64,000 nt of DNA from the IMG/VR virus record IMGVR_UViG_3300002461_000401, positions 1 through 64,000 of that record. One strand, 5' to 3'. Every line of letters starts with the position of its first letter. Positions within the stretch are counted from its first letter, which is position 1. This document shows, piece after piece, positions 5,990 through 31,726 of this stretch. Made by a program: the position numbers and the translations under genes. Below the pieces are notes generated by a model, which was not told the origin of the DNA, did no database searches, and was given only the letters and a program-made list of their open reading frames with translations. The DNA comes from a virus.

Positions 5990-6039
5990 GAGAGCCTCGG
6001 TACAGTAAGGGTTGCCGGGGCAACTTACTGGCCGGGTCT

Positions 6040-6071
6040 ATCAAACAGAAGGACAGAGAGCCTCTCTGTCC
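6040..6071 (-). terminator. hairpin GGACAGAGA-ggc-TCTCTGTCC followed by TTCTGTTTG on the minus strand
   Basis: 9-bp perfect stem (6051-6059 / 6063-6071) with a 3-nt loop, just downstream of the stop of the 6108..8111 gene, then a T-rich tract. Confidence 0.45.
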
Positions 6072-6107
6072 CTCCTATTCGTCTCAGTACTTGATTCTTC
6101 CTACAGC

Positions 6108-18420: not shown

Positions 18421-18583
18421 GGCGAAGTCTCTCTTGTCCGTGGGCAGCACGAGCGGCTGCATGGGCCATGGCATCATCGGCAGCGTCTTGCCGGAGCCAG
18501 GTGACAACACCGAGCACTAGAGCAGCTCCCAGAGCTGCTCCGATGGCCCAGCGAACGGCAGGGATGGCGAGAAGCGAGATCAC
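18347..18583 (-). CDS. i-spanin (Rz-like)
   Basis: 78 aa with an N-terminal TM helix (AIGAALGAALVLGVVTW) and a charged Ala/Arg/Glu-rich periplasmic part. Start overlaps the endolysin stop. Confidence 0.55.
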   Translation of the reverse strand: MISLLAIPAVRWAIGAALGAALVLGVVTWLRQDAADDAMAHAAARAAHGQERLRHEAETAARDAELDGAVDRLRSGSF

Positions 18584-19248
18584 GACGGGACCTCGGCCTC
18601 AGCCTGTTTCTTCCCGTTGGCTCGGGAGACGATAGTCCAGATCACGCCAGCGAGAGCCAGGATACCCAAAGCCAGAGCGACATACCCACCTTGGCCGATC
18701 CAGCGTTGAGCCTGATCCACGGAAGGAGCGTTTTCGATCAGACCAGCGCCGATGCTGCCGACAGTGGCCAGACCCGTCAGGACGCTGCCCTGAATGACGC
18801 CAGACTTCGACAGAGGAGCCACAGCGTTCGGGAGAGGCACACTGGCCGGCCAACGAATGCTCGTGACCCTGGACGGGTCGTAGCTGGCGATGCTCACCCG
18901 GTTGGACTGGTTCCCACCGAGGATAAGCCACTTCCCATCACGCTGGCCGGCGTAGAAGCCGACATGGCCACCACCACTGCGGGTGAACGTCACGATCGCG
19001 CCATAGACCGGCTTCTCGATCGGAATCCCCCAGGACTCATAGGACTTCGCCCGAGCACTCGCTGTGCTGACCAGACCGGCCTTCGTCAGGCACCAGGACA
19101 CGAAGCTGGAGCACCAGGGGACCTCGTCCTCCTTGGCCTTGAGCGTCGTGATCGCGTGGTACTCGAGAATGCGGGCGTTGTGACTGTTGCCAGTCAGTTC
19201 GGCCTGGCCCTGCTCGTCGAGTGCAATCTGCATCCAGCTGGGATTCAT
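18580..19248 (-). CDS. endolysin, TIGR02594-family (NlpC/P60-like) cell-wall hydrolase with C-terminal hydrophobic anchors
   Basis: Motifs NARILEY, VPWCSSFVSWCL, GHVGFY and LGGNQSNRV. The C-terminal 70 aa has two hydrophobic segments (VLTGLATVGSIGAGLI, YVALALGILALAGVIWTIV). Confidence 0.8.
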   Translation of the reverse strand: MNPSWMQIALDEQGQAELTGNSHNARILEYHAITTLKAKEDEVPWCSSFVSWCLTKAGLVSTASARAKSYESWGIPIEKPVYGAIVTFTRSGGGHVGFYAGQRDGKWLILGGNQSNRVSIASYDPSRVTSIRWPASVPLPNAVAPLSKSGVIQGSVLTGLATVGSIGAGLIENAPSVDQAQRWIGQGGYVALALGILALAGVIWTIVSRANGKKQAEAEVPS

Positions 19249-21966: not shown

Positions 21967-24207
21967 TTAGAGACCACTAGACGGAACTGTGACCTTGCAG
22001 AGTCGAGGACGAATGATAGTGATCGTCCCAGAAGCCGGCTGTGTCTCGCAGTCAAACGAGAACTGCCAGACCATCTGCGCGTAGAATGCCGTCTCGCCGG
22101 CCGCAGGTGTCGGCACTGTGATGATCGGCAGACGGACGTGCATGTAGCGATCCTCTGTGTGGTGGTGGTTGTTTCGGATGTACTTCCAGGGAAAGAAGCT
22201 CTCCGCTTGAGCCAAAGACGAGATCACCGCCGAGTAGGAAGCATCATTGGTGAAGTCGATGCTGAGGAGGTTCAGCGCCACTCGGGCTGCACAGAGATTG
22301 GGTGTAAGCCCGGTGTACTTCAGGATGCAGTCCATCATCAGACGTTCTCCGGGAGCGAACGGAGGTGTAGGCCAGGGAGCCTGGGGGAAGACCTCATAGC
22401 CGAAGCCGTCCCAATGGTTGTGCTGGCCCTCGGCCACGGTGTAGCGCGCCACGAAGGCACAGTTGTTCTGCGCTGTGTCGGGCCCGATGATCCCCGCGGC
22501 ACGATTAAAGGTCAGAGCGAAGCCAGGCTCATTTGAGAAGGTCCGGCCGTTGATGCTGAAGTTCTCGGTTGTGATGGCCGTCGTCAGGCAACCATCCGCC
22601 CAGGTCGCATCCGTCTGGTAGGACATAGGCGCAGGCTCAGGCCGGCTGTTGAGCGTCGAATAGGTGAACCCGTTGAAGTTCGAGAAGCTCTCGGTGTCCG
22701 AGTTCGAGGCCCGATATATGAACCAGTAGTCAGGGACCTGGCCGTGTTGATAGCCGCTGCCTTGGTTCGTATGAACGTCCTTCGTGATGCCTGTAATGGC
22801 CGCAAAGCTCGGGTTGGCCACAGGCGCACCAAGGCCAATGGCTCGACCAAGAACCAGAGCCGAACCAGGAGCACGAGCAGCAGAGGTGCCCTTGGCGAAA
22901 GTCTTGTTCAGCATCAGGTTGGGCCCGAAGCTCAGCTGACCCACACCAGCAGCATTCCCACCCTCGACGTTCTCCGAAGGAGAAGCAGGGATACCGGCGT
23001 CCTTCATCACCCGGGCCATCTCCTTGCCCAGGACGTAGGCTGCAGGCGGTGCCATGTGCAGACCGTCGTACATGAAGCGCAGACCAGGCGCGTCTGTCCG
23101 GTAGTTGCCGGGTGTGAACGGGATGTAAGAGCCAGTGGTGATACCCGACGCCGGTGAGAGCTGGCCGGCAGGATCTGTTGGAATGCCAGGCAGGATCGTC
23201 GGCGTAGGACCCACCATCTTGTCCCAGGCATCGACCAGGAAGATGTTGTTCGGGATGTCCTTCCTGGGAGCCGGCGTCAGCCAATCCCGCAGACCCTCAT
23301 TGACCGCCAGGATGCCCTGCATGATCTGAGCGACTTCGGACTGCATGTAGCCAGCACCAGTGGGAGAGAATTGAAGCAGATCCGCAGTGCGAGGCGTGAT
23401 GGTGCAGAGGAAGACCCACTTGCCAGCCGTGGCGAACTGCGTGGCGTAGCCCATCAGATTGGCCAGGATGGCCTGCGGCCTCGCATTCACCGAGATGTCG
23501 TTTGTCCCGCCCATGATCGTGACGAGATCGAATTTGTCGAGGTAAAGTAGGGCGTTGTACATCGGGCCGCGGTTGTTGGCCGTCACTCCCGGAATGGGAG
23601 CCGGGTCAAAGTTCTCCACCGTCCACTGGCTCACCTTCGACGAATAGATGGCGAAGTTGTAGCCGACGTTCGGGCTTGTTGCGTTGGCACCAGGGTTGGT
23701 GTTCGGCTGCAAAGCGGCCTGAAGCGAGAAAGCGTTGCCCAGGATCTGGTTCGCATAGCTCACCGCGCCGGTCATGCCAGTGCTGTAATACTCGTTCCGA
23801 ACCGCGGTCTTACCCGACACTGTGGTAGCTGACGGCGGGTTCCACAGGTTGTTGGCATACATGATCGAGTCCCCGAGGATCGCCATCCGACGGCCAGGGA
23901 ACGGAACTGCAGGGTAAGCCACCGGCGCAGAGATCACGCACTCATCGCTGAACTGGACACCGAGCACAGCTTCACGCGGGTTAGACAGCACCAGGCGGAA
24001 CTTCCGCGAGAGCTTGCTCATGGTGTCCCCTACCACACGCACAGTCACGCTCCGCGAAGTCGTGCCAGGAGCGAAGGTCAGCGAGCCAGTGGTGATAATG
24101 TAGTCCCGATACCCGACTGCTGTGTCATCGACCGTGGTGAAATCCACAGTCACCGGCACTGTGCTGGGGGAAGAGAGAACGACGTTGAAAGTAGCAAGGT
24201 TGATCAT
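21967..24207 (-). CDS. tail enzyme: N-terminal Calx-beta-like module + SGNH/GDSL hydrolase (probable polysaccharide deacetylase/esterase)
   Basis: 746 aa. Calx-beta-like VPVTVDFTTVDDTAVGYRDYIITTGSLTFAPGTTSRSVTVRV. SGNH blocks: AILGDSIMY (GDS), GGTNDI (GxND), YDGLHMAP (DxxH). Confidence 0.7.
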   Translation of the reverse strand: MINLATFNVVLSSPSTVPVTVDFTTVDDTAVGYRDYIITTGSLTFAPGTTSRSVTVRVVGDTMSKLSRKFRLVLSNPREAVLGVQFSDECVISAPVAYPAVPFPGRRMAILGDSIMYANNLWNPPSATTVSGKTAVRNEYYSTGMTGAVSYANQILGNAFSLQAALQPNTNPGANATSPNVGYNFAIYSSKVSQWTVENFDPAPIPGVTANNRGPMYNALLYLDKFDLVTIMGGTNDISVNARPQAILANLMGYATQFATAGKWVFLCTITPRTADLLQFSPTGAGYMQSEVAQIMQGILAVNEGLRDWLTPAPRKDIPNNIFLVDAWDKMVGPTPTILPGIPTDPAGQLSPASGITTGSYIPFTPGNYRTDAPGLRFMYDGLHMAPPAAYVLGKEMARVMKDAGIPASPSENVEGGNAAGVGQLSFGPNLMLNKTFAKGTSAARAPGSALVLGRAIGLGAPVANPSFAAITGITKDVHTNQGSGYQHGQVPDYWFIYRASNSDTESFSNFNGFTYSTLNSRPEPAPMSYQTDATWADGCLTTAITTENFSINGRTFSNEPGFALTFNRAAGIIGPDTAQNNCAFVARYTVAEGQHNHWDGFGYEVFPQAPWPTPPFAPGERLMMDCILKYTGLTPNLCAARVALNLLSIDFTNDASYSAVISSLAQAESFFPWKYIRNNHHHTEDRYMHVRLPIITVPTPAAGETAFYAQMVWQFSFDCETQPASGTITIIRPRLCKVTVPSSGL

Positions 24208-24217
24208 GACACAGACC

Positions 24218-25867
24218 TCAATCGAAGAGCGGGAGCAGCAGGTTCATCTTCAGGCCTTGGACTGATGCAGCGTCCACACCCTTCAAGAGACCACCAAGAG
24301 GATTTCCGCTCTCAGGGTTGAGGGCGAAGTAGGCGAAAGACATGCCTTGGCCACCGACAGGAATGACCGAAGAACCGTCGTTCCGCTGGCCGTTCATGTA
24401 CTTGACCAGGCTCTGCATCCACTGGATCTCGTAGGTGGCTGAGGTCTGGTTGGAATCTGCTCCACCAGAGATCGCGTCGATGGCGAACCCTCCACCGAAC
24501 TCACCCACGAAAAGGGGAGCGATGCCCTCGTTGTAGATGAAGCCCCAGTACTCATCCCGGCGAGCTTCGATATTGTTCGGGTAGTTCGGCACCACTCGGT
24601 TGGCGAGCGTCGGATAGGGAGTGCCGGCCGTCTGCGCGTTCGCAGAGAGCCAGGGCTGATCCGAGACGCTGTGACCGTACTCGTGCGGGGTGTAGCAGAC
24701 CTTGTTCTGGGCGCTGACCGTCACAGGACGGGTGCGAACGTCCTTGAAGTAACCACCCCACCAGAACTGATCGTCCAGGCCGAGGTTCACGCCGTTATTG
24801 GCCACACCACCCACGACCATCATCCAGTCAGGAGCGATCGCGTGGACCTTGGGGAAGAGCCGCTCGCACATGCCGGCCCAGACATTCCAGGTGACGTTGT
24901 GCGGCTCATTGTGCGGCTCGAAGCCCCAAATCACGTTCTTGAGCTTCGGATCCGTGGCCCAGACGCCGGAGGTGCAATAGGTGGCCAGGCTCTCCCAGAA
25001 GGAGCCCCAGATCGTCTCGGTGTAGGTCCGAGGCGTGCTCGAGCCGCCGTAGAGGAAGGTGTCCGTGGCCAGGTTCATAGTCGGCCAGCCGTCCGTGCCG
25101 AAGCCGCTGTCACCCTCGCGGATCGGATCCACGGAGATCCGGTGGTGATCCAGGAGAATGCGAACACCCACTTCGGCACAGTATTGAGCCATCTTGGTGA
25201 AGGCCTGCATCGGCGTGAGACCAACCAGGTCCTCGTTCACATTGCCGACGAACAGGTCACCCGAGGTGTTGTTGAAGACAGCCGTCGAGGTGATCATGTC
25301 ATCGGCGAAAACGAACCGGATGCAGTTGAACCCCAGGCCGGCGATCTGGTCGATGATCTCCCGGTAGGCGCGGCCGCGGTACAGACCCAGAGGGATCAGG
25401 TTGTTGGTCTCATTGCCGTACCAGTTGATGCCGCGCAGCCGGACGATCTGACCGTCGCTGTCCACGAACTGGTTCCCAACCGCCGAGAGAGGCTTCAGGA
25501 TCGGAGCTGCAGGTGCCGGAACCATGGACTGGAAGCTGACCGTGAGCTGGAGCGCCGCGGAGCCAGGGATGACACACTCACCGAACTCATTGCTCGTCGG
25601 GAAGACAGCGTTGATGGGCGCACTCAGCACACAGCGGAAAGCCTCGGTAGCAGCGCCGGCGAGATCATCCCGAACCGAGACCTCGATCGTCTTGGAGACC
25701 TCACCCGGGGCGAAGCTCAGCGTGCCCGACTTCGAGACGTAGTCCACCCCAGCAGTGGCCAGGCTGGCTCCACCTGTCGCGGTCCCATTCTGGGTGGTGT
25801 AGGAGACCGTCACCGGAACCGTGCTCGGACCAGACAGAGTCACGGTGAATGTAGCTTTGCGGGGCAT
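24218..25867 (-). CDS. tail enzyme: N-terminal Calx-beta-like module + glycoside hydrolase family 5
   Basis: 549 aa. Calx-beta-like VPVTVSYTTQNGTATGG..DYVSKSGTLSFAPGEVSKTIEVSV. GH5 signatures: GFNCIRF, LLDHH, FEPHNEP (acid/base), HEYGH, VGEFGG (nucleophile). Confidence 0.75.
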   Translation of the reverse strand: MPRKATFTVTLSGPSTVPVTVSYTTQNGTATGGASLATAGVDYVSKSGTLSFAPGEVSKTIEVSVRDDLAGAATEAFRCVLSAPINAVFPTSNEFGECVIPGSAALQLTVSFQSMVPAPAAPILKPLSAVGNQFVDSDGQIVRLRGINWYGNETNNLIPLGLYRGRAYREIIDQIAGLGFNCIRFVFADDMITSTAVFNNTSGDLFVGNVNEDLVGLTPMQAFTKMAQYCAEVGVRILLDHHRISVDPIREGDSGFGTDGWPTMNLATDTFLYGGSSTPRTYTETIWGSFWESLATYCTSGVWATDPKLKNVIWGFEPHNEPHNVTWNVWAGMCERLFPKVHAIAPDWMMVVGGVANNGVNLGLDDQFWWGGYFKDVRTRPVTVSAQNKVCYTPHEYGHSVSDQPWLSANAQTAGTPYPTLANRVVPNYPNNIEARRDEYWGFIYNEGIAPLFVGEFGGGFAIDAISGGADSNQTSATYEIQWMQSLVKYMNGQRNDGSSVIPVGGQGMSFAYFALNPESGNPLGGLLKGVDAASVQGLKMNLLLPLFD

Positions 25868-25881
25868 TGCTCTGTCTTTCT

Positions 25882-28800
25882 TCAGCTATGCGAGACGACG
25901 AGATCGCGGAGTTCGGCAGCGACATACTCACCAGCACCACCACTCGCCGGCGTAGCCTGAGAATAGGCACCAGCCTTGAAGTACCAGGTGTTGACGCCGG
26001 CTGTGGCCACAAGATCACTGGAAGTGACCAGAGGCGTAGTCATGTCATTGCCGAACACTGTCACCACACCTCCAGAGACCCGGATCTTCCACGAGAACTC
26101 CGTCCCCATGACGTAGTCTTCGTAGATCCGCGCCAGACCAGTCGATGTTCCATTCACACGGATCAGGACCTTGGTGACACCCGAGATAAGCTGAGTACGG
26201 ATGCAGACACGATCGGCATCACCATTGAACAGCTGAGCGATGATGATCTCAGGGTCAGCTGCAGGCAGGTGGGTGATCTTGGTCTTGCCGCTCATCTCAT
26301 GCGTGCCGACCAGAGCGTTATAGGCAATGTTCGTCCCGAACTTGTCCACTTCACGGAGCTCGCAGCGAGCGAACGTCGTGGAACCAAGGACAGGAGCATC
26401 CAGCGCCACACGCATCTGGACCCGCTTCACGCCGGCGACATCGGTCACCTTGAAGTAGGGATCCTCGGTGTAGCCGGCCATCAGGTTGCCCATCGTGTAG
26501 ATCTTGGGACCTGAATCACCTGTCCGAGCCATCTGCAGCTCGAAATGGTTCTGAGCCGCATCCACACCGATGTTGAGCACACGCGCCGGCGTGAACGTCT
26601 CCACCGTCGAAGAGAGCTCTCCGATGGCAGTCAGCATCTGCAGAGGTGTCGGGTTCAGCGGCCCAGCAGGGATCGAGCTGGTGTTCGGGGTACCCAAGAA
26701 CGACCAGATGCCCAGACCAGCCTTCGGATCGGCAGCCAGGAATGCCTTGTTCGCTGCGATCTCGAAGACCGAGGTGGGGGCTTCCGAGCCACCATGGACG
26801 GCCATACCCAGAACCAAGGGACCACTCCAGAGCGCCCGATAGGCGGTGAAGGCTTCCTGTGGGTTGTAAACGTCCGTGCTGTCGTAACCCATCACGAAGA
26901 TCAGATCGACCTTCGACGCCGAGGCAGAGCCAAGGAAGTTCACCATGTCGCCGCCCAGGGACCATTCCGGCTGGGAAGCTGTGAACTGCCCAACCCGGTA
27001 GGCACCCACACCGAAGGCAGCCATGGTCAGGATCTTCGGCCGCGGCAGGACAGCTCGGATCGAGTCCACCGCCGAGACGTAGCGCGCATCCTCCGTGCAG
27101 CTGATCGTCCCACCAGTGACCGTGCAGACGCCCGGGAGCTCGATGTCTAGGTCCACACCATCGAAGCCGATGTCAGCCACTAGATTGGCGATCGCGGTCG
27201 GGTTCAGGGAGTTCCAGTTGGTGGACGTGGCGAAGGAAGATCCACCCACCGAAAGCAGGACCTTGATGTTGGGGTACCTGGCGTGCAGAGCCGTCACCGC
27301 TTGCTTGAGGTTCAGACCCCCAAACGACCAGTTCAGGCCGGTGTCGCTGATGTTGTACGAGCCAGCCGTATAGGTGAGGTTCGGCTTGGCGAAGGACACA
27401 TTCACGACGTCCACATTGGACGGCATGGCAGTGACCATCAGCGAGTCAGCCCCATCTGCCACAGAGGGATCAGCCCAGGTCTCGAAATAGACCACCACCG
27501 GCCGATCAGGGATCAGCGACGGAACCGACACAGAAGGCTGGCCAACCTGACTTGTGCTGGCAATTCCGGCGACAGTGATCGACTGAGGCGAGCTCGAGCC
27601 CGAACCAGTGATAGGAGCAGGGAGAGCTTCCACAGGTGTGGGTGCCGGGTCGAAGAACCGGTTCAGGAAGCCCGTGAGCTTGTCCGTGCGCTCCGTGACG
27701 TAGTCGGTCTCGACCAGGCCACCGATCACGTCAGGCACGAAGCCCCAGAAAGCGGTACCGATCCGGCGCGAATGGCAGTAGTCGGCCAGGCGGTGCAGCC
27801 ACTCTTGGTCCATGGCCTTGGCTTCGGTCGTGAAGCCGGCATCTCCGACACGCCAGGTCGAGCCGAACTCACCGATCCAGACCGGTGCGATGTTCTCCTC
27901 GGCGAGGTAGCCCCACTGCTGACGCCAGACCTCGAACAGGTTGGACGGGAAGCTCTTGCCCTTGAGCGACTTCGTGAACCAGTTGGGAGGACCAGCTTCG
28001 TGGCCATACTCGTGCGGAGAGTAGGCGACCTTGTTCGGCTCGATGCCGGGTTCAGCCGAGCCAATGCGAAGAGCAGGGTCACGAACCTTCTGCAGGTAGC
28101 CCGACCAGATCGAGCCCCAGGTCTTCTCGCCCTCGGTGAAGGTCTCGTCGAAGTTCCAGGCATCCTCGGGAGGTGTGCAGCTGCCTTCGCAGATCAGCAT
28201 CACATCCGGGTTGATGGCGTGGATCTCCTTGCCCACGCGCTCGTAAAGAGCGACCAGGCCGTGATCCAGGTTGCGAGACCAGGTGGAGTTGTACGGCTCG
28301 TTGAGCAGGTCGAAGGCGCAGACCACCGGCCGGTTCTTGTACCGGTTGGCGTAGAACTTCCAGGCCTCGATGTAGCTGGTCTCGTTCCGGCGAGCACCGT
28401 CGATCCAGCGGGTCCAGCGATCACCCGACTCAGCGCCGAAGCGTGTGGCCGTGGTGTACCACTTGCCCTGGGTCGTGTTGATGTTGCTGTTGTCCGCGGC
28501 CAAGCAGTGCATGTCGAAGATGATGCGAAGGCCGATCGCCTCACAGTGATCGACCAGCTTGTCGAGGATGGTGATGACGTCGTGCGGGACGATGTAGCCC
28601 GTCATGACATCCCGGGACTTCACGAGATCCGGGTTCAGGTCCGCATTGATGAAGGTGCTGTTCCACGCCGGCGTCTCGGGAGCTGTGCGAGCTGTGAAGA
28701 ACTTCCCTTCGGAGTCCGTCTTGGTCATGTCCACGCTGACCAGAAGTCGGATCGAGTTGAAGCCAAGGCGCTTGATCTTGTCGAGCATGCCCTCTTGGGT

Positions 28801-30504
28801 GACCCCACCCACCGTGATCGTCTTGTACGGCGCAGCCCAGGTGCCATAGGGAACACCAGCCTGCTCCAGGCCGTAGTAGTTGCAGGAGCGCAGCAGGACC
28901 CCCTCACCGGAGGCATCACGCATGAGCGCGCCATCCGCCGAGAGATAGGTGAGCGCACCCTCAGCAGCTGCCTCAATGGTAGGCCGGCCGACCTGGCTGT
29001 TGGACGGAATGCCAGCCATCTGCAGGACCACGTTCTCGGACGTAACTGTGCCCTCGGTGATCACACCGTCGCTGATCGTCATGGTGATGGTTGTGACGTC
29101 GTCCGTCAGGACGCCATCACTGATGGTGACCACGATGTTCGACAGGCCGATGCCCGACAGAGGCACGCTCTTCGACAGGACATCGTCGTAGGAGATGCTG
29201 AGTGTGCCCGTGCGAAGACCCGTCTGGCTCGGGGTGAACACACCCACCAGAGTCCGGCTCTCACCAGGCTGCAGCACGATCGGGAAGATCGTCGGAACCG
29301 CAAGCTTGGGCCGGCCCACTCGAGATGTGGACACCATGCCGGCGATCGACAGGATCGTGGGCGGGATCGGAATCGTCGGGAAGCCAAGCTGAGCCGTGCT
29401 CTGGATCGAACCCATCGTCAGAGACAGGCTCAGATCGAGCGAGGGTTCACCCACCTCGAGCGTACTTTCCAGCCCCAGAGGAGACACGGTGTAGATCGAC
29501 CGGACCTCAGGCTCACCCATCACGCTGGTCTCAGGGATCCCTTCGAGGGTGATCTCCTGGGGAGGACCGATCACAGTCGGCAACCCCACAACGGAGCCAG
29601 AGGGAATGCCCTCTATCGAGAGGGTCTGGATGGTCCCGGGGGCGATGATCGTCGGATCACCCACGACAGCTGTGGGGGCGATGCCTTCGACCGTCAGAGC
29701 CAGGGAGGCAGCCACACTCGGTTCGCCCACGGCCGAGCCAGAAGCAATACCGCCCATCGTGATCGACAGGCTGGGAACGATGCTCGGCTGACCCACCGAG
29801 TTGGTGTTCGAGATGCCGCTCAGATTGACGGTCTGGTTTGTGGCCGAAGCAGTACCCTTGATGGCAACCAGACCCTGCTGAGCCGGAAGGGTACCGCCCG
29901 TGACGTTGGTCGCAGACGAGTAAGTGCCGGCTGCAGTCACAGAAGCAGTGGCAAACGCCTCCTTGAAGAAGGAGGTGACCGTTGGATCGGTGATGAAGTT
30001 GGAGAATGTCGCGCCTGTACCGGTGATGCTCGGGCCCGAACCGCCGTAGGAGCCAGCACCAGCAAGCAGGAGGATCTCACCACCAGCGGTCGTGACCGAC
30101 GAAGTGAGAGGTGTGGTTGTGCCGCTGTCCAGGTCGAACGCTTCGATCGGGGACGAAGCAGCACTGTTCTGGATGGCGATGACAGTGACGCTGCCTTGGT
30201 TCGTCACATAGGTGAGCCCAGGCGAGTTCACCACCACATTGGCTGTGGTCTGCGCCGGCGCGACGAGAGCGAACACCGCACCAGACATGACAGCAGTCGT
30301 CGGCCACGTCCCAAGCCGCGTCATGGCTACGCCATTGAAGCTCGCAGCCAGGTTCGCCGGCGACTCGTTCGAGTAGCCCCAGAAGTACACGAGCAGGAGC
30401 GAAGCCCCTGTCGCGTTGAAGGAGTTGACCGAATTGACCGGGTTTTGCGCCGAAGCGTCAAAGGTCGAGGATCGGAGTACACTCGGCGTCGGCATGACAT
30501 CCAC
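25882..30504 (-). CDS. giant multi-domain tail protein (N4 gp65/66 position): repeat region + GH5 + GH18-like + PL7-like lyase domain
   Basis: 1540 aa. About 10 GIxSxSxVGxPxV repeats (~29300-29820). GH5: GFNSIRL, FDLLNEPYN, SPHEYGHE, WIGEFGS (~27700-28960). GH18: LLSVGGSS, GFDGVDLDIE (~26690-27510). PL7-like: RCELRE, YFKAGAYSQ (~25885-26600). Confidence 0.75.
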   Translation of the reverse strand: MDVMPTPSVLRSSTFDASAQNPVNSVNSFNATGASLLLVYFWGYSNESPANLAASFNGVAMTRLGTWPTTAVMSGAVFALVAPAQTTANVVVNSPGLTYVTNQGSVTVIAIQNSAASSPIEAFDLDSGTTTPLTSSVTTAGGEILLLAGAGSYGGSGPSITGTGATFSNFITDPTVTSFFKEAFATASVTAAGTYSSATNVTGGTLPAQQGLVAIKGTASATNQTVNLSGISNTNSVGQPSIVPSLSITMGGIASGSAVGEPSVAASLALTVEGIAPTAVVGDPTIIAPGTIQTLSIEGIPSGSVVGLPTVIGPPQEITLEGIPETSVMGEPEVRSIYTVSPLGLESTLEVGEPSLDLSLSLTMGSIQSTAQLGFPTIPIPPTILSIAGMVSTSRVGRPKLAVPTIFPIVLQPGESRTLVGVFTPSQTGLRTGTLSISYDDVLSKSVPLSGIGLSNIVVTISDGVLTDDVTTITMTISDGVITEGTVTSENVVLQMAGIPSNSQVGRPTIEAAAEGALTYLSADGALMRDASGEGVLLRSCNYYGLEQAGVPYGTWAAPYKTITVGGVTQEGMLDKIKRLGFNSIRLLVSVDMTKTDSEGKFFTARTAPETPAWNSTFINADLNPDLVKSRDVMTGYIVPHDVITILDKLVDHCEAIGLRIIFDMHCLAADNSNINTTQGKWYTTATRFGAESGDRWTRWIDGARRNETSYIEAWKFYANRYKNRPVVCAFDLLNEPYNSTWSRNLDHGLVALYERVGKEIHAINPDVMLICEGSCTPPEDAWNFDETFTEGEKTWGSIWSGYLQKVRDPALRIGSAEPGIEPNKVAYSPHEYGHEAGPPNWFTKSLKGKSFPSNLFEVWRQQWGYLAEENIAPVWIGEFGSTWRVGDAGFTTEAKAMDQEWLHRLADYCHSRRIGTAFWGFVPDVIGGLVETDYVTERTDKLTGFLNRFFDPAPTPVEALPAPITGSGSSSPQSITVAGIASTSQVGQPSVSVPSLIPDRPVVVYFETWADPSVADGADSLMVTAMPSNVDVVNVSFAKPNLTYTAGSYNISDTGLNWSFGGLNLKQAVTALHARYPNIKVLLSVGGSSFATSTNWNSLNPTAIANLVADIGFDGVDLDIELPGVCTVTGGTISCTEDARYVSAVDSIRAVLPRPKILTMAAFGVGAYRVGQFTASQPEWSLGGDMVNFLGSASASKVDLIFVMGYDSTDVYNPQEAFTAYRALWSGPLVLGMAVHGGSEAPTSVFEIAANKAFLAADPKAGLGIWSFLGTPNTSSIPAGPLNPTPLQMLTAIGELSSTVETFTPARVLNIGVDAAQNHFELQMARTGDSGPKIYTMGNLMAGYTEDPYFKVTDVAGVKRVQMRVALDAPVLGSTTFARCELREVDKFGTNIAYNALVGTHEMSGKTKITHLPAADPEIIIAQLFNGDADRVCIRTQLISGVTKVLIRVNGTSTGLARIYEDYVMGTEFSWKIRVSGGVVTVFGNDMTTPLVTSSDLVATAGVNTWYFKAGAYSQATPASGGAGEYVAAELRDLVVSHS

Positions 30505-30573
30505 CCAGCCAGAAAGCGTTCATCAAGCCCTGAGCCAGGTGATCTGGCTCAGGGCATCAGCACAGCGACGGGC

Positions 30574-31023
30574 TCAGACGGCGAAGATCTTGGCCGCACC
30601 AGTGTCCCAGTTGATCAGCACATCGCCACCGTTGGTCACGACGGAGACGGCCGAACCGCCCGAGACGGTGTCGATGAAGGCCACCAGGCGGGACGTGCTC
30701 GGCGTGCCGGTGTCGAGGAACAGCACCAGGGCATTGGCCGTATTGCCGGCCGCAACGCCGGCGAAGGTGACCGAAGCCGCATTCAGCACGCCATTGGTGA
30801 CGGTCTTGGAGGCCAGGGTCTGAGCCGTGCCCACCGTGTTCGCGCCCACATCGGACAGGAACTCGTGAGCCGCCGAATAGGCGTAGGGGGCCTTGACCAT
30901 GATGGCCTTGAGCGTCACCGCGGTCGGAGCGGCACCGGTGCCGGAGCCGATGTAGTTGTTGACCAGGTCCACGCCCGGGGAGAGCATCGCCTGCTTGAAC
31001 TTGGGGAAGATGAGGTTGGCCAT
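30574..31023 (-). CDS. hypothetical tail-module protein
   Basis: 149-aa ORF, Ala/Gly/Thr/Val-rich, immediately upstream of the giant tail protein gene. Confidence 0.45.
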   Translation of the reverse strand: MANLIFPKFKQAMLSPGVDLVNNYIGSGTGAAPTAVTLKAIMVKAPYAYSAAHEFLSDVGANTVGTAQTLASKTVTNGVLNAASVTFAGVAAGNTANALVLFLDTGTPSTSRLVAFIDTVSGGSAVSVVTNGGDVLINWDTGAAKIFAV

Positions 31024-31046
31024 GGAAGTGTTCCTTCAGGTATAGT

Positions 31047-31298
31047 TCAGGGATTCACCGAGAAATCAGTGACGCTGCCGGTGATATCCAGACCTGTGAT
31101 GGTGATTGGAACATCGCCAATATTTGTGAGAACCAGTGTTGTCTCACTGGAAGCGCCGAGCTGTGTGTCAGGGAAGGTCAGCGTGATCTTGCTGAGCTCC
31201 AACCCTTCTTCTTTGTTCAGGTACACCCGGCTCGAGTGATGCTTCACCGGCCGGGCCGTGATGAAGGTCTCGAACGGGATGAAGGTGAACTGAGCCAT
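31047..31298 (-). CDS. small Ig-like/beta-sandwich protein
   Basis: 83 aa. TLVLTNIGDVPITITGLDITGS resembles ASH/choice-of-anchor-type Ig folds. Confidence 0.4.
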   Translation of the reverse strand: MAQFTFIPFETFITARPVKHHSSRVYLNKEEGLELSKITLTFPDTQLGASSETTLVLTNIGDVPITITGLDITGSVTDFSVNP

Positions 31299-31303
31299 GG
31301 GGA

Positions 31304-31726
31304 TCAGCTCTCGTAGGACAGCCGGCAGCGGATCTCGGCGTTGGCCATCGCAACCGGAGCCATGGTGAAGAGAGTCACCCGCACGAAGCCGTTGACGATC
31401 GCCGCGGCAAACAGACCGGAGGCATCCCCATAGACGTCGCCGGTGGCTGTCACGATCATGACGCTGATGCTGCGGATATTCGCCGGCGTCACAGTCGCAG
31501 GCAGATCGAGCTCGACCGTGGAACCCAGGGATCCCGTCGAACCGCCGACCATCAGGTACTTCTCGGGCTGGGCCGAAGCCAGAGCCACGATGGCCTGCAT
31601 GTTCCCAGCCACATACTTGATCGCCGGCAGCTCACGCTGGACAGCTCGCACGACGTCGAAGGCTGTACCGATCAGCTTGTCCACCAGGCCGGCGTTGCCG
31701 CCGTAGGGGTCATTCACTGTTCGCAT
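31304..31726 (-). CDS. hypothetical tail-module protein
   Basis: 140-aa ORF whose stop/start overlaps the upstream gene by 1 nt. Confidence 0.45.
   Translation of the reverse strand: MRTVNDPYGGNAGLVDKLIGTAFDVVRAVQRELPAIKYVAGNMQAIVALASAQPEKYLMVGGSTGSLGSTVELDLPATVTPANIRSISVMIVTATGDVYGDASGLFAAAIVNGFVRVTLFTMAPVAMANAEIRCRLSYES

What the first reader, a model, noticed from the sequence alone, without database searches (positions are those of the whole stretch)
25882..30504. One 1540-aa tail protein carries three different polysaccharide-cleaving domains (GH5 + GH18-like + PL7-like)
The ORF sits where N4 has its sheath/appendage genes. It reads as: an N-terminal part, about ten 17-aa GIxSxSxVGxPxV repeats, and three separate catalytic-looking modules.
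- GH5: FDLLNEPYN acid/base and WIGEFGS nucleophile.
- GH18: SVGGS and the canonical DGxDxDxE as FDGVDLDIE.
- C-terminal jelly roll with two PL7 alginate-lyase signatures: RCELRE (RxELR) and YFKAGAYSQ (YFKAGxYxQ).

Phage depolymerases normally carry one catalytic domain, so three chemistries in one virion protein is unusual. It suggests a mixed or layered exopolysaccharide target. The PL7 QIH motif appears as AQLF, with no His, so the lyase module may be altered or may only bind substrate.
Basis: partly seen in the sequence, partly recalled or inferred. Interest (0 to 1): 0.72.

Follow-up and report, generated by a model that had tools for sequence, protein, structure and literature searches.

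The report
Phage tail fibre with three enzymes
An uncultivated N4-like phage, known only from metagenomes (its near-identical twin is from a water-filter biofilm), encodes a 1,537-residue tail fibre that strings together a cellulase-type, a chitinase-type and an alginate-lyase-type module, a three-enzyme combination not seen in any other protein searched, probably to cut through a mixed sugar-polymer matrix around its host.

Summary
The ORF at 25882-30504 (-) is real; its likely start is the ATG at 30495 (1,537 aa).

- **Catalytic modules.** It carries three modules above Pfam's curated cut-offs: GH5 (aa 516-957), GH18 (998-1297) and PL7 (1306-1540). GH5 and GH18 keep complete catalytic residue sets. 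The PL7 module keeps Arg, Gln, Lys and Tyr but has Phe in place of the Q-I-H histidine.
- **His to Phe.** This change is recurrent in its phage-borne subfamily (13 of 72 modules, at least 5 origins), so it looks like a selected switch, not decay.
- **Genome context.** The genome is a true schitovirus, and the gene occupies N4's gp66/gp65 slot.
- **Uniqueness.** In an exhaustive search of 1.84 billion protein representatives, only this protein's own cluster has all three modules. Two-enzyme relatives are common (GH5+GH5, GH5+GH18, GH5+PL7, PL7+PL7).
- **Cassette swap.** A sister phage shares aa 28-962 and then has a second GH5 instead of GH18+PL7.
- **Shared gene set.** The fibre, a small upstream protein, and two downstream enzymes (Calx-beta+GH5, Calx-beta+GDSL esterase) recur in an E217-like myovirus.

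Corrections: the repeats have a period of 22-25 aa, not 17. Verdict: a new variant of a known kind (enzymatic tail fibres such as Erwinia phage S6 gp095). Host and substrates are unknown.

The parts
25882..30495 (-). Whole gene for the tri-catalytic tail fibre: 1537 aa from the ATG at 30495, with an alternative GTG at 30504 giving 1540 aa. The stop codon is at 25882-25884.
   Evidence: ORF list. It is 1533/1537 identical to P0006, which was assembled independently from other samples.
29830..30495 (-). N-terminal beta-sandwich domain (aa 4-225), shared with the fibres of the sister podovirus, an E217-like myovirus, and P0144. It probably belongs to the proximal, virion-side end of the fibre.
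   Evidence: Alignments A2 and A3. Model pLDDT 78, pTM 0.82. No PDB match, TM <= 0.29. Many predicted phage minor tail proteins match in BFVD, TM 0.6-0.78.
29290..29829 (-). Stalk of about 8 tandem repeats, G[IL]xSxSxVGxPx[VI], with a period of 22-25 aa (aa 226-405).
   Evidence: Motif scan: 48 observed matches against 1 in shuffled sequences. Weak matches to phrog_8501 'minor tail protein' and to mycobacteriophage minor tail proteins. The DNA copies are only 60-79% alike, so the repeats are old.
28960..29289 (-). Ig-like/ASH-type beta domain (aa 406-492), plus one isolated repeat unit (aa 493-515) immediately before GH5.
   Evidence: Weak Pfam matches to Cep192_D4 and ASH. The homologous position in L062's fibre carries a HYDIN/VesB-like Ig domain. 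Motif at aa 498.
27634..28959 (-). GH5 (cellulase-type) catalytic module, aa 516-957. Acid/base E736 is at 28297-28299 and nucleophile E879 is at 27868-27870.
   Evidence: Pfam PF00150, E 8.5e-28. phrog_18474 'hydrolase', E 3e-102. PDB hits E1 (1ece/1vrx) and CelE2 (8fc0) with aligned NEP and GEF motifs. Conservation across 74 relatives: E736 73/74, E879 74/74, R586 74/74, H831 74/74, Y833 74/74.
27514..27633 (-). Linker with one copy of the stalk repeat (SITVAGIASTSQVGQPSVSVPSL, aa 975-997). This is where homology to the sister phage's fibre ends.
   Evidence: A DNA-level echo of the aa-246 unit is 79% identical over 24 nt (family D5).
26614..27513 (-). Compact GH18 (chitinase-type) module, aa 998-1297. 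D1120 is at 27145-27147 and E1122 is at 27139-27141.
   Evidence: Pfam PF00704, E 1.9e-14. PDB 3ebv and other chitinases, with FDGVDLDIE aligned to FDGVDIDLE. Relatives at 33-42% identity are 320-480 aa GH18 proteins. Conservation across 47 relatives: D1115 47/47, D1120 46/47, E1122 46/47, Y1207 46/47.
25885..26589 (-). C-terminal PL7-type jelly-roll module, aa 1306-1540. It has R1380, Q1424, K1510 and Y1514, with Phe1426 (TTC, 26227-26229) where canonical PL7 has His.
   Evidence: Pfam PF08787, E 6.4e-20 over the full profile. PDB 5zqi and 1uai alignments. Model pLDDT 94.6. Foldseek TM 0.93 and 0.88. Subfamily conservation and His/Phe counts.
24218..25867 (-). Downstream partner gene 1: a 549-aa protein with an N-terminal Calx-beta domain and a second GH5. 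It starts 14 nt after the fibre's stop codon.
   Evidence: Pfam. It is conserved next to the fibre gene in the sister podovirus (56% identity) and in the myovirus L074 (45%). It is 37% identical to the phiEaP8 GH5 protein.
21967..24207 (-). Downstream partner gene 2: a 746-aa protein with an N-terminal Calx-beta domain and a GDSL/SGNH esterase. The C-terminal ~400 aa match no family.
   Evidence: Pfam and PHROG 'lipase' matches. 64% identical to the sister's 744-aa protein and 55% to the myovirus 752-aa protein.
30574..31023 (-). 149-aa protein (phrog_644) immediately upstream. It travels with the fibre cassette and is a candidate adaptor or assembly factor.
   Evidence: 68% identical to the sister's 148-aa protein. 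32% identical (E 7e-15) to the 144-aa protein directly upstream of the myovirus fibre.
31304..31726 (-). 140-aa protein whose N-terminus resembles the N-terminus of the N4 gp66 appendage and of the phiEaP8 'tail-spike'. It is a candidate truncated virion anchor.
   Evidence: blastp: aa 2-55 against N4 gp66 aa 18-65, 39%; aa 1-51 against the phiEaP8 362-aa protein, 49%.

Best explanation
The gene encodes a virion-borne, modular, multi-enzyme tail fibre of an uncultivated schitovirus (N4-like podophage).

**Layout.** A phage-specific N-terminal beta-sandwich and a repeat stalk lie toward the virion. An Ig-like domain follows. Three enzyme modules are then strung along the distal end: GH5 (retaining beta-1,4-glucanase type), GH18 (chitinase type, substrate-assisted) and PL7 (uronate beta-eliminase type).

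**Action.** During adsorption the fibre binds and cuts extracellular polysaccharide around the host, so that the particle can reach the cell surface. GH5 is the conserved core activity, as in Erwinia phage S6, where cellulose is the first receptor. GH18 and PL7 are accessory modules that were added or exchanged as C-terminal cassettes.

**Partners.** The fibre works with two enzymes encoded immediately downstream (Calx-beta+GH5 and Calx-beta+SGNH esterase). The small 149-aa and 140-aa proteins upstream may provide the attachment. Together these would give one host-recognition apparatus with five carbohydrate-active domains.

**PL7 module.** The Tyr1514/Arg1380 machinery for syn-elimination is intact. 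The His-to-Phe change most likely retunes how the +1 sugar is held, giving a different uronate substrate, rather than killing the enzyme.

**Shown:** the architecture, catalytic-residue conservation, folds, synteny, cassette exchange and cassette mobility.
**Inferred:** virion attachment, enzymatic activity, the substrates, and cooperation of the proteins.
For: - **Architecture and residues.**
- **PL7 fold.**
- **Schitovirus identity.**
  - The virion RNA polymerase lies at 2-5989 (-), phrog_2206, E 9e-287.
  - An N4-type RNAP subunit is present.
  - The portal is 58% and the terminase 70% identical to N4's.
- **Structural slot.** The gene order is terminase, gp67-like, 140 aa, 149 aa, fibre, 549 aa, 746 aa, then lysis genes and portal. 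This matches N4's gp68-gp67-gp66-gp65...gp59. No gp65 homologue remains.
- **N-terminal domain.** It matches predicted phage minor tail proteins.
- **Precedent.**
  - S6 gp095 is a GH5 protein that degrades carboxymethylcellulose.
  - Cellulose is S6's first receptor, and the genes lie in the same polymorphic region (PMC9544554).
  - The window's GH5 is 28-31% identical to the S6 and phiEaP8 proteins.
- **Cassette exchange.** The sister phage L073 shares aa 28-962 (48% overall, GH5 73%), then has a second GH5.
- **Cassette mobility.** The E217-like myovirus L074 has the same gene set between its baseplate genes:
  - a small protein;
  - a fibre with GH5-GH18, 32% identical across both modules;
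  - Calx-beta+GH5;
  - Calx-beta+GDSL.
- **PL7-type module on viral contigs.** Its closest relatives sit in large tail-fibre ORFs:
  - L062: Gp77 fibre-tail adaptor + Ig + GH5 + PL7.
  - L065: PL7 + pectate-lyase beta-helix.
- **His to Phe as a selected switch.**
  - Counts are 58 His, 13 Phe and 1 Asn; a parsimony reconstruction on a neighbour-joining tree needs at least 6 state changes.
  - The query's nearest relatives carry His.
  - Arg, Gln, Lys and Tyr stay >= 97% conserved.
- **Mechanism.** In mannuronate-specific PL7 enzymes, Tyr is both base and acid. His only positions the +1 sugar through its 2-OH (PMC11920209).
- **Not an artefact.** The same ORF occurs at 99.7% identity in independent assemblies.
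- **Habitat.** The twin contig comes from an activated-carbon (biofilm) metagenome.
Against: - **No experimental data.** There is no virion proteomics, no enzyme assay, no host and no known polysaccharide.
- **Attachment not identified.**
  - The fibre's N-terminus has no sequence similarity to N4 gp65/gp66 or to the fibre N-termini of S6 and phiEaP8.
  - It also has no solved structural relative.
- **His mutants.** His-to-Asn mutants of canonical PL7 enzymes are almost inactive, so the Phe variant might not cleave.
- **GH18 profile coverage.** The Pfam GH18 match covers only profile positions 2-186 of 317. Full-length alignment to compact GH18 proteins mitigates this.
- **GH18 substrate unclear.** GH18 substrates (beta-1,4-GlcNAc polymers) are not typical matrix components of Gram-negative bacteria.
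- **Limit of the uniqueness claim.** It rests on the best 150 of 2232 hits and on gene calls from fragmentary contigs.
Confidence: 0.7

Rival explanations
1. The C-terminal PL7-type module is a lyase-derived lectin. It has lost catalysis through His1426Phe. It serves as the distal receptor-binding tip that holds a uronate-containing polymer, while GH5 and GH18 do the cutting. On this reading the fibre has two chemistries, not three.
For: - The His of Q-I-H is replaced by Phe.
- His-to-Asn mutants of PL7 enzymes lose almost all activity (PMC11920209).
- The module sits at the extreme C-terminus, where fibres usually carry their binding domain.
- Jelly-roll folds are common carbohydrate-binding modules. 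Lower-ranked Foldseek hits include non-lyase jelly rolls.
Against: - In the Phe variants, Arg, Gln, Lys and Tyr remain conserved as strictly as in the His variants. That is expected for an enzyme, not for a mere binding module.
- The replacement is nearly always Phe (12 Phe, 1 Asn) and arose several times. His (CAY) to Phe (TTY) needs two nucleotide changes.
- Tyr alone can perform syn-elimination.
Confidence: 0.3
2. The enzymes are not aimed at the host's own receptor polysaccharide. They target the heterogeneous matrix of a multi-species biofilm (cellulose, chitin-like and uronate polymers from neighbours). This lets the particle diffuse through, or lodge in, the biofilm. Host recognition proper would be done by another protein.
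For: - The twin contig comes from an activated-carbon filter biofilm metagenome.
- The three chemistries rarely co-occur in a single bacterial EPS.
- The same cassette sits in phages with very different GC content (52-64%) and morphotypes. This suggests a function that does not depend on the host.
Against: - In the only studied relative (S6), the GH5 substrate cellulose is the host's own first receptor and is required for infection.
- The cassette replaces the gp65 receptor-binding protein, and no other candidate RBP was found in the slot.
Confidence: 0.2
3. The GH18 module is a virion-associated cell-wall hydrolase. Some compact GH18 enzymes, such as hevamine, also cleave the peptidoglycan glycan strand (own knowledge). 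On this reading it helps genome delivery rather than matrix degradation.
For: - The module is a compact, ~300-aa GH18 with a full catalytic motif.
- No obvious bacterial matrix polymer matches GH18 specificity.
Against: - It is embedded between two polysaccharide-degrading modules at the distal end of a long fibre, not in an ejection or tail-tip protein.
- The phage has its own CHAP/NlpC-P60 endolysin at 18580-19248.
- Its nearest relatives include a CBM2+GH18 protein named 'cellulose binding domain-containing protein'.
Confidence: 0.1
4. The protein is not part of the virion. It is a soluble depolymerase released at lysis. Alternatively, the long ORF is an assembly or frameshift artefact that fuses separate genes.
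For: - There is no proteomic evidence for virion association.
- Free phage depolymerases exist (own knowledge).
Against: - The gene lies inside the structural module, between gp67-like and portal.
- Its N-terminal fold is typical of minor tail proteins.
- The stalk repeats are typical of fibres.
- The identical architecture occurs at 99.7% identity in independent assemblies (Logan and NCBI LNFM01).
- GH5-GH18 is contiguous in the myovirus homologue too.
- GC content is uniform across the gene.
Confidence: 0.07

Closest known systems
Erwinia phage S6 gp095/gp094 and their phiEaP8 homologues: GH5 tail proteins of N4-like phages, with cellulose as first receptor
   Same: - Same virus family.
- Same polymorphic slot between terminase/gp67 and the lysis genes/portal.
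- Same GH5 subfamily: 28-31% identity for the big fibre and 37% for the 549-aa partner.
- A second downstream protein has the same Calx-beta-type N-terminus, 39-44% identical.
   Different: - The S6-type proteins carry one catalytic domain each (~730-800 aa).
- Here the first protein is twice as long. It has a different N-terminal domain and repeat stalk.
- It carries GH18 and PL7-type modules that have no tblastn match in 50,697 GenBank phage records.
Phage G7C gp66-gp63.1 branched tailspike complex (an N4-like phage with an SGNH esterase spike)
   Same: - An N4-like phage in which a gp66-type anchor carries a second enzymatic spike, an esterase.
- The window has a gp66-N-like 140-aa protein and a GDSL/SGNH esterase protein in the same region.
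   Different: - No XD2/XD3 docking domains were detected.
- The anchor is truncated to 140 aa.
- The complex is only inferred here.
Canonical PL7 lyases: AlgAT5 (5zqi), AlyPG (1uai), A1-II' (2cws), PsAlg7A/C
   Same: - Jelly-roll fold, TM 0.69-0.93.
- RxELR, Q-x-[H], and YFKAGxYxQ motifs in register.
   Different: - Only 22-27% sequence identity.
- His is replaced by Phe.
- An extra conserved N-terminal element (LNIG...QNHF.LQ) defines a subfamily found mostly in phages.
- The substrate is unknown.
Multi-RBP phages, such as Klebsiella phage phiKp24 with 14 RBPs, and the CBA120 TSP1-4 complex
   Same: Several polysaccharide-degrading activities are combined on one virion.
   Different: Those phages use one catalytic domain per protein and assemble many proteins into branches. 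This phage fuses three different catalytic folds in one polypeptide, and also has two partner enzymes.
Multi-catalytic bacterial CAZymes, such as GH9-GH48 CelA-type cellulases (own knowledge, not tested here)
   Same: Tandem catalytic modules joined by linkers, with synergy on composite substrates.
   Different: Those are secreted bacterial enzymes with CBMs. This protein is built on a phage fibre scaffold and mixes hydrolase and lyase mechanisms.

Membership tests
GH5 (clan GH-A retaining glycoside hydrolases) | Significant match to the family profile across the (beta/alpha)8 domain | tested here: met
   PF00150, 98 bits against a cut-off of 23.5, profile positions 17-267 of 272. PDB E1 and CelE2, E ~1e-29.
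GH5 (clan GH-A retaining glycoside hydrolases) | Acid/base Glu in the N-E-P motif and nucleophile Glu, plus the conserved Arg, His, Asn, His and Tyr | tested here: met
   E736 and E879 align to the NEP and GEF motifs of E1. R586, H666, N735, H831 and Y833 are present and 72-74/74 conserved among relatives.
GH5 (clan GH-A retaining glycoside hydrolases) | Hydrolytic activity on a beta-glycan | not testable with these tools
   Only by analogy to S6 gp095, which degrades carboxymethylcellulose.
GH18 | Family profile match | tested here: met
   PF00704, 54.5 bits against a cut-off of 29.6, but only profile positions 2-186 of 317. Full-length alignment (270-300 aa) to compact GH18 proteins P0001-P0004.
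GH18 | DxxDxDxE catalytic motif, plus SxGG and the Y-D of the MxYD motif | tested here: met
   D1115, D1118, D1120 and E1122 in FDGVDLDIE are aligned to FDGVDIDLE of 3ebv. SVGGS is at 1085. Y1207 and D1208 are present. Conservation is 46-47/47 for D1, D3, E and Y.
GH18 | Chitinase or endo-N-acetylglucosaminidase activity | not testable with these tools
PL7 polysaccharide lyases | Family profile match and beta-jelly-roll fold | tested here: met
   PF08787, 72.4 bits against a cut-off of 29.7, profile positions 5-225 of 225. Model pLDDT 94.6. Foldseek 5zqi TM 0.93 with rmsd 1.8 A, and 1uai TM 0.88.
PL7 polysaccharide lyases | Catalytic Tyr (YFKAGxYxQ), Arg (RxELR) and Gln (QIH) | tested here: met
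   Y1514, R1380 and Q1424 are in register with 1uai. By published knowledge, its catalytic residues are Tyr195, Arg72 and Gln117. They also align with A1-II'. Conservation is >= 70/72 in the subfamily.
PL7 polysaccharide lyases | His of the Q-I-H motif | tested here: not met
   Phe1426 (TTC) aligns with the His of QIH in 5zqi, 1uai and A1-II'. The same substitution is in 13 of 72 subfamily modules. I therefore call the module 'PL7-type', not a canonical PL7 lyase.
PL7 polysaccharide lyases | Beta-eliminative cleavage of a uronate polymer | not testable with these tools
   Needs an A235 assay on alginate or glucuronan.
Schitoviridae (N4-like phages) | Giant virion RNA polymerase and N4-type gene order | tested here: met
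   vRNAP fragment at 2-5989 (-), phrog_2206, E 9e-287. RNAP subunit phrog_2051. Portal 58%, terminase 70% and gp67 37% identical to N4, with the same gene order.
Phage tail fibre / receptor-binding protein | Encoded in the tail/RBP slot and carrying a fibre-type N-terminal module | tested here: met
   Synteny. The N-terminal fold matches predicted minor tail proteins. Homologous fibres lie between baseplate genes in a myovirus. Another relative follows a Gp77 fibre-tail adaptor domain in L062.
Phage tail fibre / receptor-binding protein | Physical presence on the virion and a role in adsorption | not testable with these tools
   Needs virion proteomics, cryo-EM or genetics.

The most novel reading that the evidence does not exclude
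The fibre belongs to a previously undescribed, horizontally mobile four-gene 'matrix-degrading fibre cassette': small adaptor, long fibre, Calx-beta+GH5 and Calx-beta+esterase.

- The cassette plugs into podovirus, myovirus and possibly jumbo-phage tails.
- It diversifies by adding and swapping catalytic modules at the fibre's C-terminus.
- Within it, the convergent His-to-Phe PL7 variant defines a new functional class. This could be a Tyr-only lyase tuned to uronates whose 2-OH is substituted (for example O-acetylated). It could instead be a lyase-derived lectin.
Probability: 0.35. Interest if true: 0.78.

Novelty: new variant of a known kind. Interest (0 to 1): 0.62.

Why it matters
**Phage biology.** Phage depolymerases are usually described as one enzyme per tailspike. 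Phages that need several activities are thought to add more spike proteins. This fibre shows another route: fusing hydrolase and lyase modules in series on one polypeptide and exchanging them as C-terminal cassettes, even between phage morphotypes.

**Applications.** If the modules are active, the protein is a ready-made multi-enzyme tool against composite biofilm matrices. Together with its sister and myovirus homologues, it is also a natural experiment in how receptor-binding proteins gain new specificities.

**Enzymology.** The recurrent His-to-Phe change gives a direct test of the recently proposed Tyr-only mechanism of PL7 lyases and of the role of the 'catalytic' histidine.

Tried and rejected
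**Searches that failed or found nothing**
- The word-index homologue search timed out with the full protein.
- The same search found nothing for the PL7 module alone, and only five GH18 proteins for GH18+PL7. The exhaustive HMMER search was what revealed the relatives.
- Exact-sequence look-ups of the window protein and of P0156 found no contig.
- IMG/VR scans found nothing with the full protein, the N-terminal alignment or the GH18 module.
- tblastn of the GH18 and PL7 modules against GenBank phages found no match.

**Host inference: no firm result**
- The window has no tRNA genes.
- The nearest isolates have portals no more than 66% identical and infect Pseudomonas, Erwinia, Sinorhizobium and Achromobacter.
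- The sister phage lies on a 296,681-bp contig labelled Roseococcus. I suspected a 4 x 74 kb concatemer. Only one copy of the fibre gene is on record for that contig. The host hint therefore stays unverified.

**Ideas considered and rejected**
- *Recent acquisition or duplication.* GC content is flat at 0.58-0.63, and the DNA repeats are only 60-79% alike.
- *The stalk repeat as a general module-junction signal.* The motif occurs only in this protein, its sister and one other protein.

**Other dead ends**
- The PDB fold search for the N-terminal domain gave no meaningful hit (TM <= 0.29).
- The literature searches found no description of PL7-type or GH18 modules in tail fibres, or of multi-catalytic phage depolymerases. 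That is absence of evidence in open-access text only.


Full report
**1. Observation**

The ORF at 25882..30504 on the minus strand exists and is 1540 aa from a GTG. An ATG three codons downstream (30495) follows a GGGTGG Shine-Dalgarno-like site. It gives the 1537-aa product that independent gene calls report: P0006 is 1533/1537 identical.

Pfam finds three catalytic families, each above its curated cut-off:
- GH5 (PF00150), aa 556-921, E 8.5e-28.
- GH18 (PF00704), aa 1003-1215, E 1.9e-14.
- PL7 (PF08787), aa 1320-1539, E 6.4e-20 over the full profile.

Sequence searches of the PDB return the same families: endocellulase E1 and CelE2; alginate lyases AlgAT5 and AlyPG; chitinases.

The repeats are real, with 48 motif matches in relatives against 1 after shuffling. 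They form about 8 tandem copies with a 22-25 aa period at aa 230-401, plus single copies at aa 498 and aa 980. They are not 17-aa units.

**2. Catalytic competence**

*GH5.* E736 (NEP motif) and E879 (GEF motif) align to the corresponding E1 motifs. By published knowledge, these hold E1's acid/base and nucleophile glutamates. R586, H666, N735, H831 and Y833 are present and 72-74/74 conserved in relatives.

*GH18.* FDGVDLDIE (D1115, D1118, D1120, E1122) aligns to FDGVDIDLE of chitinase 3ebv. SVGGS is present, as are Y1207 and D1208. The key residues are 46-47/47 conserved.

*PL7-type module.* R1380, Q1424, K1510 and Y1514 are in register with AlgAT5, AlyPG and A1-II'. The His of Q-I-H is Phe1426, codon TTC. 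An AlphaFold model built with 20 subfamily sequences has pLDDT 94.6. It superposes on 5zqi (TM 0.93, rmsd 1.8 A) and 1uai (TM 0.88).

Among 72 aligned subfamily modules, the His position holds 58 His, 13 Phe and 1 Asn. Arg, Gln, Lys and Tyr are 70-71/72 conserved. On a neighbour-joining tree, at least 6 state changes are needed, and the query's three nearest relatives all have His. So the change recurs, goes almost only to Phe, and needs two nucleotide changes from CAY.

Recent structural work on mannuronate-specific PL7 enzymes concludes two things. Tyr is both base and acid in syn-elimination, helped by the conserved Arg. His only positions the +1 sugar through its 2-OH, although His-to-Asn nearly abolishes activity (PMC11920209).

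I infer that the chemical machinery is intact and that Phe alters substrate positioning. The module may be an enzyme of new specificity or a binding module. That question is open.

**3. Genome context**

The window is a genuine schitovirus:
- A truncated virion RNA polymerase lies at 2-5989 (-), phrog_2206, E 9e-287.
- An N4-type RNAP subunit is present.
- The portal is 58% and the terminase 70% identical to N4's.
- No GenBank phage is closer than 66% in the portal.

The gene order on the minus strand is:
- terminase;
- 236-aa gp67-like/SU10 adaptor-like protein;
- 140 aa;
- 149 aa;
- the fibre;
- 549 aa;
- 746 aa;
- 205 aa;
- 411-aa tail protein;
- 165 aa;
- 222-aa CHAP endolysin;
- portal.

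N4 has gp68-gp67-gp66 (appendage)-gp65 (sheath/RBP)-gp64...gp59. The fibre therefore sits in the gp66/gp65 slot, and no gp65 homologue remains.

- The 140-aa protein shares its first ~55 residues with the N-terminus of N4 gp66 (39%) and of the phiEaP8 'tail-spike' (49%). This fits a truncated anchor.
- The two downstream genes encode Calx-beta+GH5 (549 aa) and Calx-beta+GDSL/SGNH esterase (746 aa). The locus therefore holds five carbohydrate-active domains in three adjacent genes.

**4. Relatives and evolution**

An exhaustive HMMER search with aa 341-1540 against 1.84 billion representatives gave 2232 hits. Module mapping of the best 150 gave these architectures:

| Proteins | Modules |
|---|---|
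| P0006 (this protein's own cluster) | GH5 + GH18 + PL7 |
| P0007, P0009-11 | GH5 + GH5 |
| P0029, P0034, P0121 | GH5 + GH18 |
| P0026, P0031 | GH5 + PL7 |
| P0008 | PL7 + PL7 |

A triple-domain relative should score among the best hits, so I take the fusion to be unique in this collection. The caveat is that many contigs are fragments.

*P0006's cluster.* It includes a protein from NCBI WGS LNFM01 on a 75.9-kb contig. LNFM01 is an activated-carbon metagenome (PMC5894146 supplements).

*P0007, the sister phage.* It lies in a syntenic N4-like genome region, L073. Terminase is 78% identical, portal 73%, and the two partner enzymes 56% and 64%. The fibres are homologous over aa 28-962 (48% overall, GH5 73%). 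The sister then continues with a second GH5 where the window has GH18+PL7. This is a C-terminal cassette exchange.

*P0029, in a myovirus.* It lies in L074, a 63-kb E217-like myovirus contig. Between the sheath-initiator and Baseplate_J genes, that contig has these genes:

| L074 protein | Content | Identity to the window's counterpart |
|---|---|---|
| 144 aa | small protein | 32% (149-aa protein) |
| 1778 aa | fibre with Calx-beta + GH5 + GH18 | 32%, contiguous across both modules |
| 575 aa | Calx-beta + GH5 | 45% (549-aa protein) |
| 752 aa | Calx-beta + GDSL | 55% (746-aa protein) |

The whole gene set is therefore shared between podoviruses and a myovirus. GH5-GH18 is the older fusion, and PL7 is a terminal addition in the window's lineage.

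*The PL7-type subfamily.* It is mainly phage-borne. IMG/VR contigs L062-L066 carry it at 38-52% identity inside 490-1840-aa ORFs:
- L062: Gp77 fibre-tail adaptor + Ig + GH5 + PL7.
- L065: PL7 + pectate-lyase beta-helix.

Among 185,579 species genomes, only four short MAG contigs reach 40% identity. P0031 (GH5+PL7, Phe variant) sits on a ~290-kb contig and is again followed by a Calx-beta protein.

Neither the GH18 nor the PL7 module has any tblastn match in 50,697 GenBank phages. GC content is uniform across the gene, and the DNA repeats are old. The fusion is therefore not recent.

**5. The N-terminal domain**

Residues 1-225 match no Pfam or PHROG family. They align with the N-termini of the sister fibre, the myovirus fibre and P0144.

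A model (pLDDT 78, pTM 0.82) is an all-beta sandwich. It has no PDB relative (TM <= 0.29). It has many predicted viral relatives, largely 'minor tail proteins' of Mycobacterium and Gordonia phages, and proteins of Sinorhizobium, Rhizobium and Roseobacter phages (TM 0.6-0.78).

This supports a virion or fibre role. It does not show how the fibre is attached.

**6. Mechanism proposed**

*Shown:*
- the modular architecture;
- intact catalytic sets in GH5 and GH18, and a PL7 site intact except for His;
- the structural-slot location;
- cassette exchange and cassette mobility.

*Inferred:* the fibre is on the virion and degrades extracellular polysaccharide during adsorption.
- GH5 is the core activity, by analogy to S6. 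There, gp095 degrades carboxymethylcellulose and cellulose is the first receptor (PMC9544554).
- GH18 and the PL7-type module extend the range to GlcNAc-containing and uronate-containing polymers.
- The esterase partner removes acyl decorations.
- The proteins form a branched complex, like G7C gp66-gp63.1 (PMC8825819).

*Speculative (own reasoning):* the target is a decorated beta-1,4-glucan or a layered matrix, and Phe1426 accommodates a 2-O-substituted uronate.

**7. Comparison and novelty**

Enzymatic GH5 tail proteins in N4-like phages are known (S6). So are esterase spikes (G7C) and multi-RBP virions. I found no description of any of the following:
- three different catalytic folds fused in one fibre;
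- a phage-borne PL7-type subfamily with a convergent His-to-Phe variant;
- a four-gene cassette shared across morphotypes.

I rate this a new variant of a known kind and moderately to highly interesting. Its value depends on showing activity and finding the host.

Noticed in passing
window 30527-30555 (- strand): A perfect 12-bp hairpin (GCCCTGAGCCAG-atcac-CTGGCTCAGGGC) lies 18 nt after the stop codon of the 149-aa gene and ~30 nt before the fibre's start. It is followed only by TT, not a U-run. It could be a weak terminator, an attenuator or an mRNA-stability element that sets the fibre's expression level.
   Followed up: no
window 27283-31239 (+ strand): A 1318-aa ORF runs antisense to the fibre gene. 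Other long antisense ORFs exist, for example 24671-25960 (+). Both overlap genes with strong homology support on the minus strand, in a 60% GC genome, so they are almost certainly not genes.
   Followed up: partly
window 2-5989 (- strand): An open frame of over 1996 aa runs off the window's start. It is the N4-type virion RNA polymerase (phrog_2206, E 9e-287). The + strand ORFs listed at 26-6094 are its antisense shadows.
   Followed up: yes
window 31304-31726 (- strand): This 140-aa protein keeps only the N-terminal ~55 residues of the N4 gp66 appendage / phiEaP8 tail-spike. The appendage seems reduced to its anchor in this phage and its sister (147 aa).
   Followed up: partly
window 21967-24207 (- strand), aa ~340-746 of the product: The C-terminal ~400 residues of the Calx-beta+GDSL esterase protein match no Pfam, PHROG, NCBIfam or PDB sequence. 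They are 55-64% conserved in the sister podovirus and the myovirus. They could be a further uncharacterised domain, enzymatic or binding.
   Followed up: no
window 18580-19248 (- strand): The lysis region encodes a CHAP/NlpC-P60 peptidase-type endolysin. N4 and phiEaP8 are annotated with a muramidase-type endolysin at the equivalent place.
   Followed up: no
L073 (ERZ25074234 contig of 296,681 bp, labelled Roseococcus sp.; WP_421991653.1): A complete-looking N4-like structural region, with the genome ends joined (gp1-like gene next to the terminase side), sits inside a 297-kb contig attributed to an Acetobacteraceae bacterium. This may be a chimeric assembly, a mis-binned phage or a real host association. 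It is the only host hint for this phage group.
   Followed up: partly
L074:9554-19344: An E217-like myovirus carries the same small-protein, fibre, Calx-beta+GH5 and Calx-beta+GDSL gene set between its sheath-initiator and Baseplate_J genes. This shows transfer of a whole receptor-binding cassette between podoviruses and myoviruses.
   Followed up: yes
L077:9001-20190 (JGI 3300073878 contig of 290,432 bp): A GH5+PL7-type fibre (Phe variant) and a 988-aa Calx-beta protein lie on a ~290-kb contig of almost entirely unannotated genes. Two Capsule_synth (PF05159) genes follow within 8 kb. The contig may be a jumbo phage that encodes both capsule-synthesis and capsule-degrading functions.
   Followed up: no
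L075:8001-13125: A stand-alone 219-aa copy of the fibre's N-terminal beta-sandwich domain (P0163) sits on a 42.8-kb phage-like contig. Directly after it comes a cluster of glycosyltransferase, PIG-L deacetylase-like, epimerase/dehydratase and methyltransferase genes.
   Followed up: no
P0008 (999 aa), L065:9425-12859, L063:7735-12006: Other unusual combinations of the same PL7-type module exist. P0008 has two tandem PL7-type modules. L065 has PL7 + pectate-lyase-like beta-helix. L063 has PL7 + DUF4082.
   Followed up: partly
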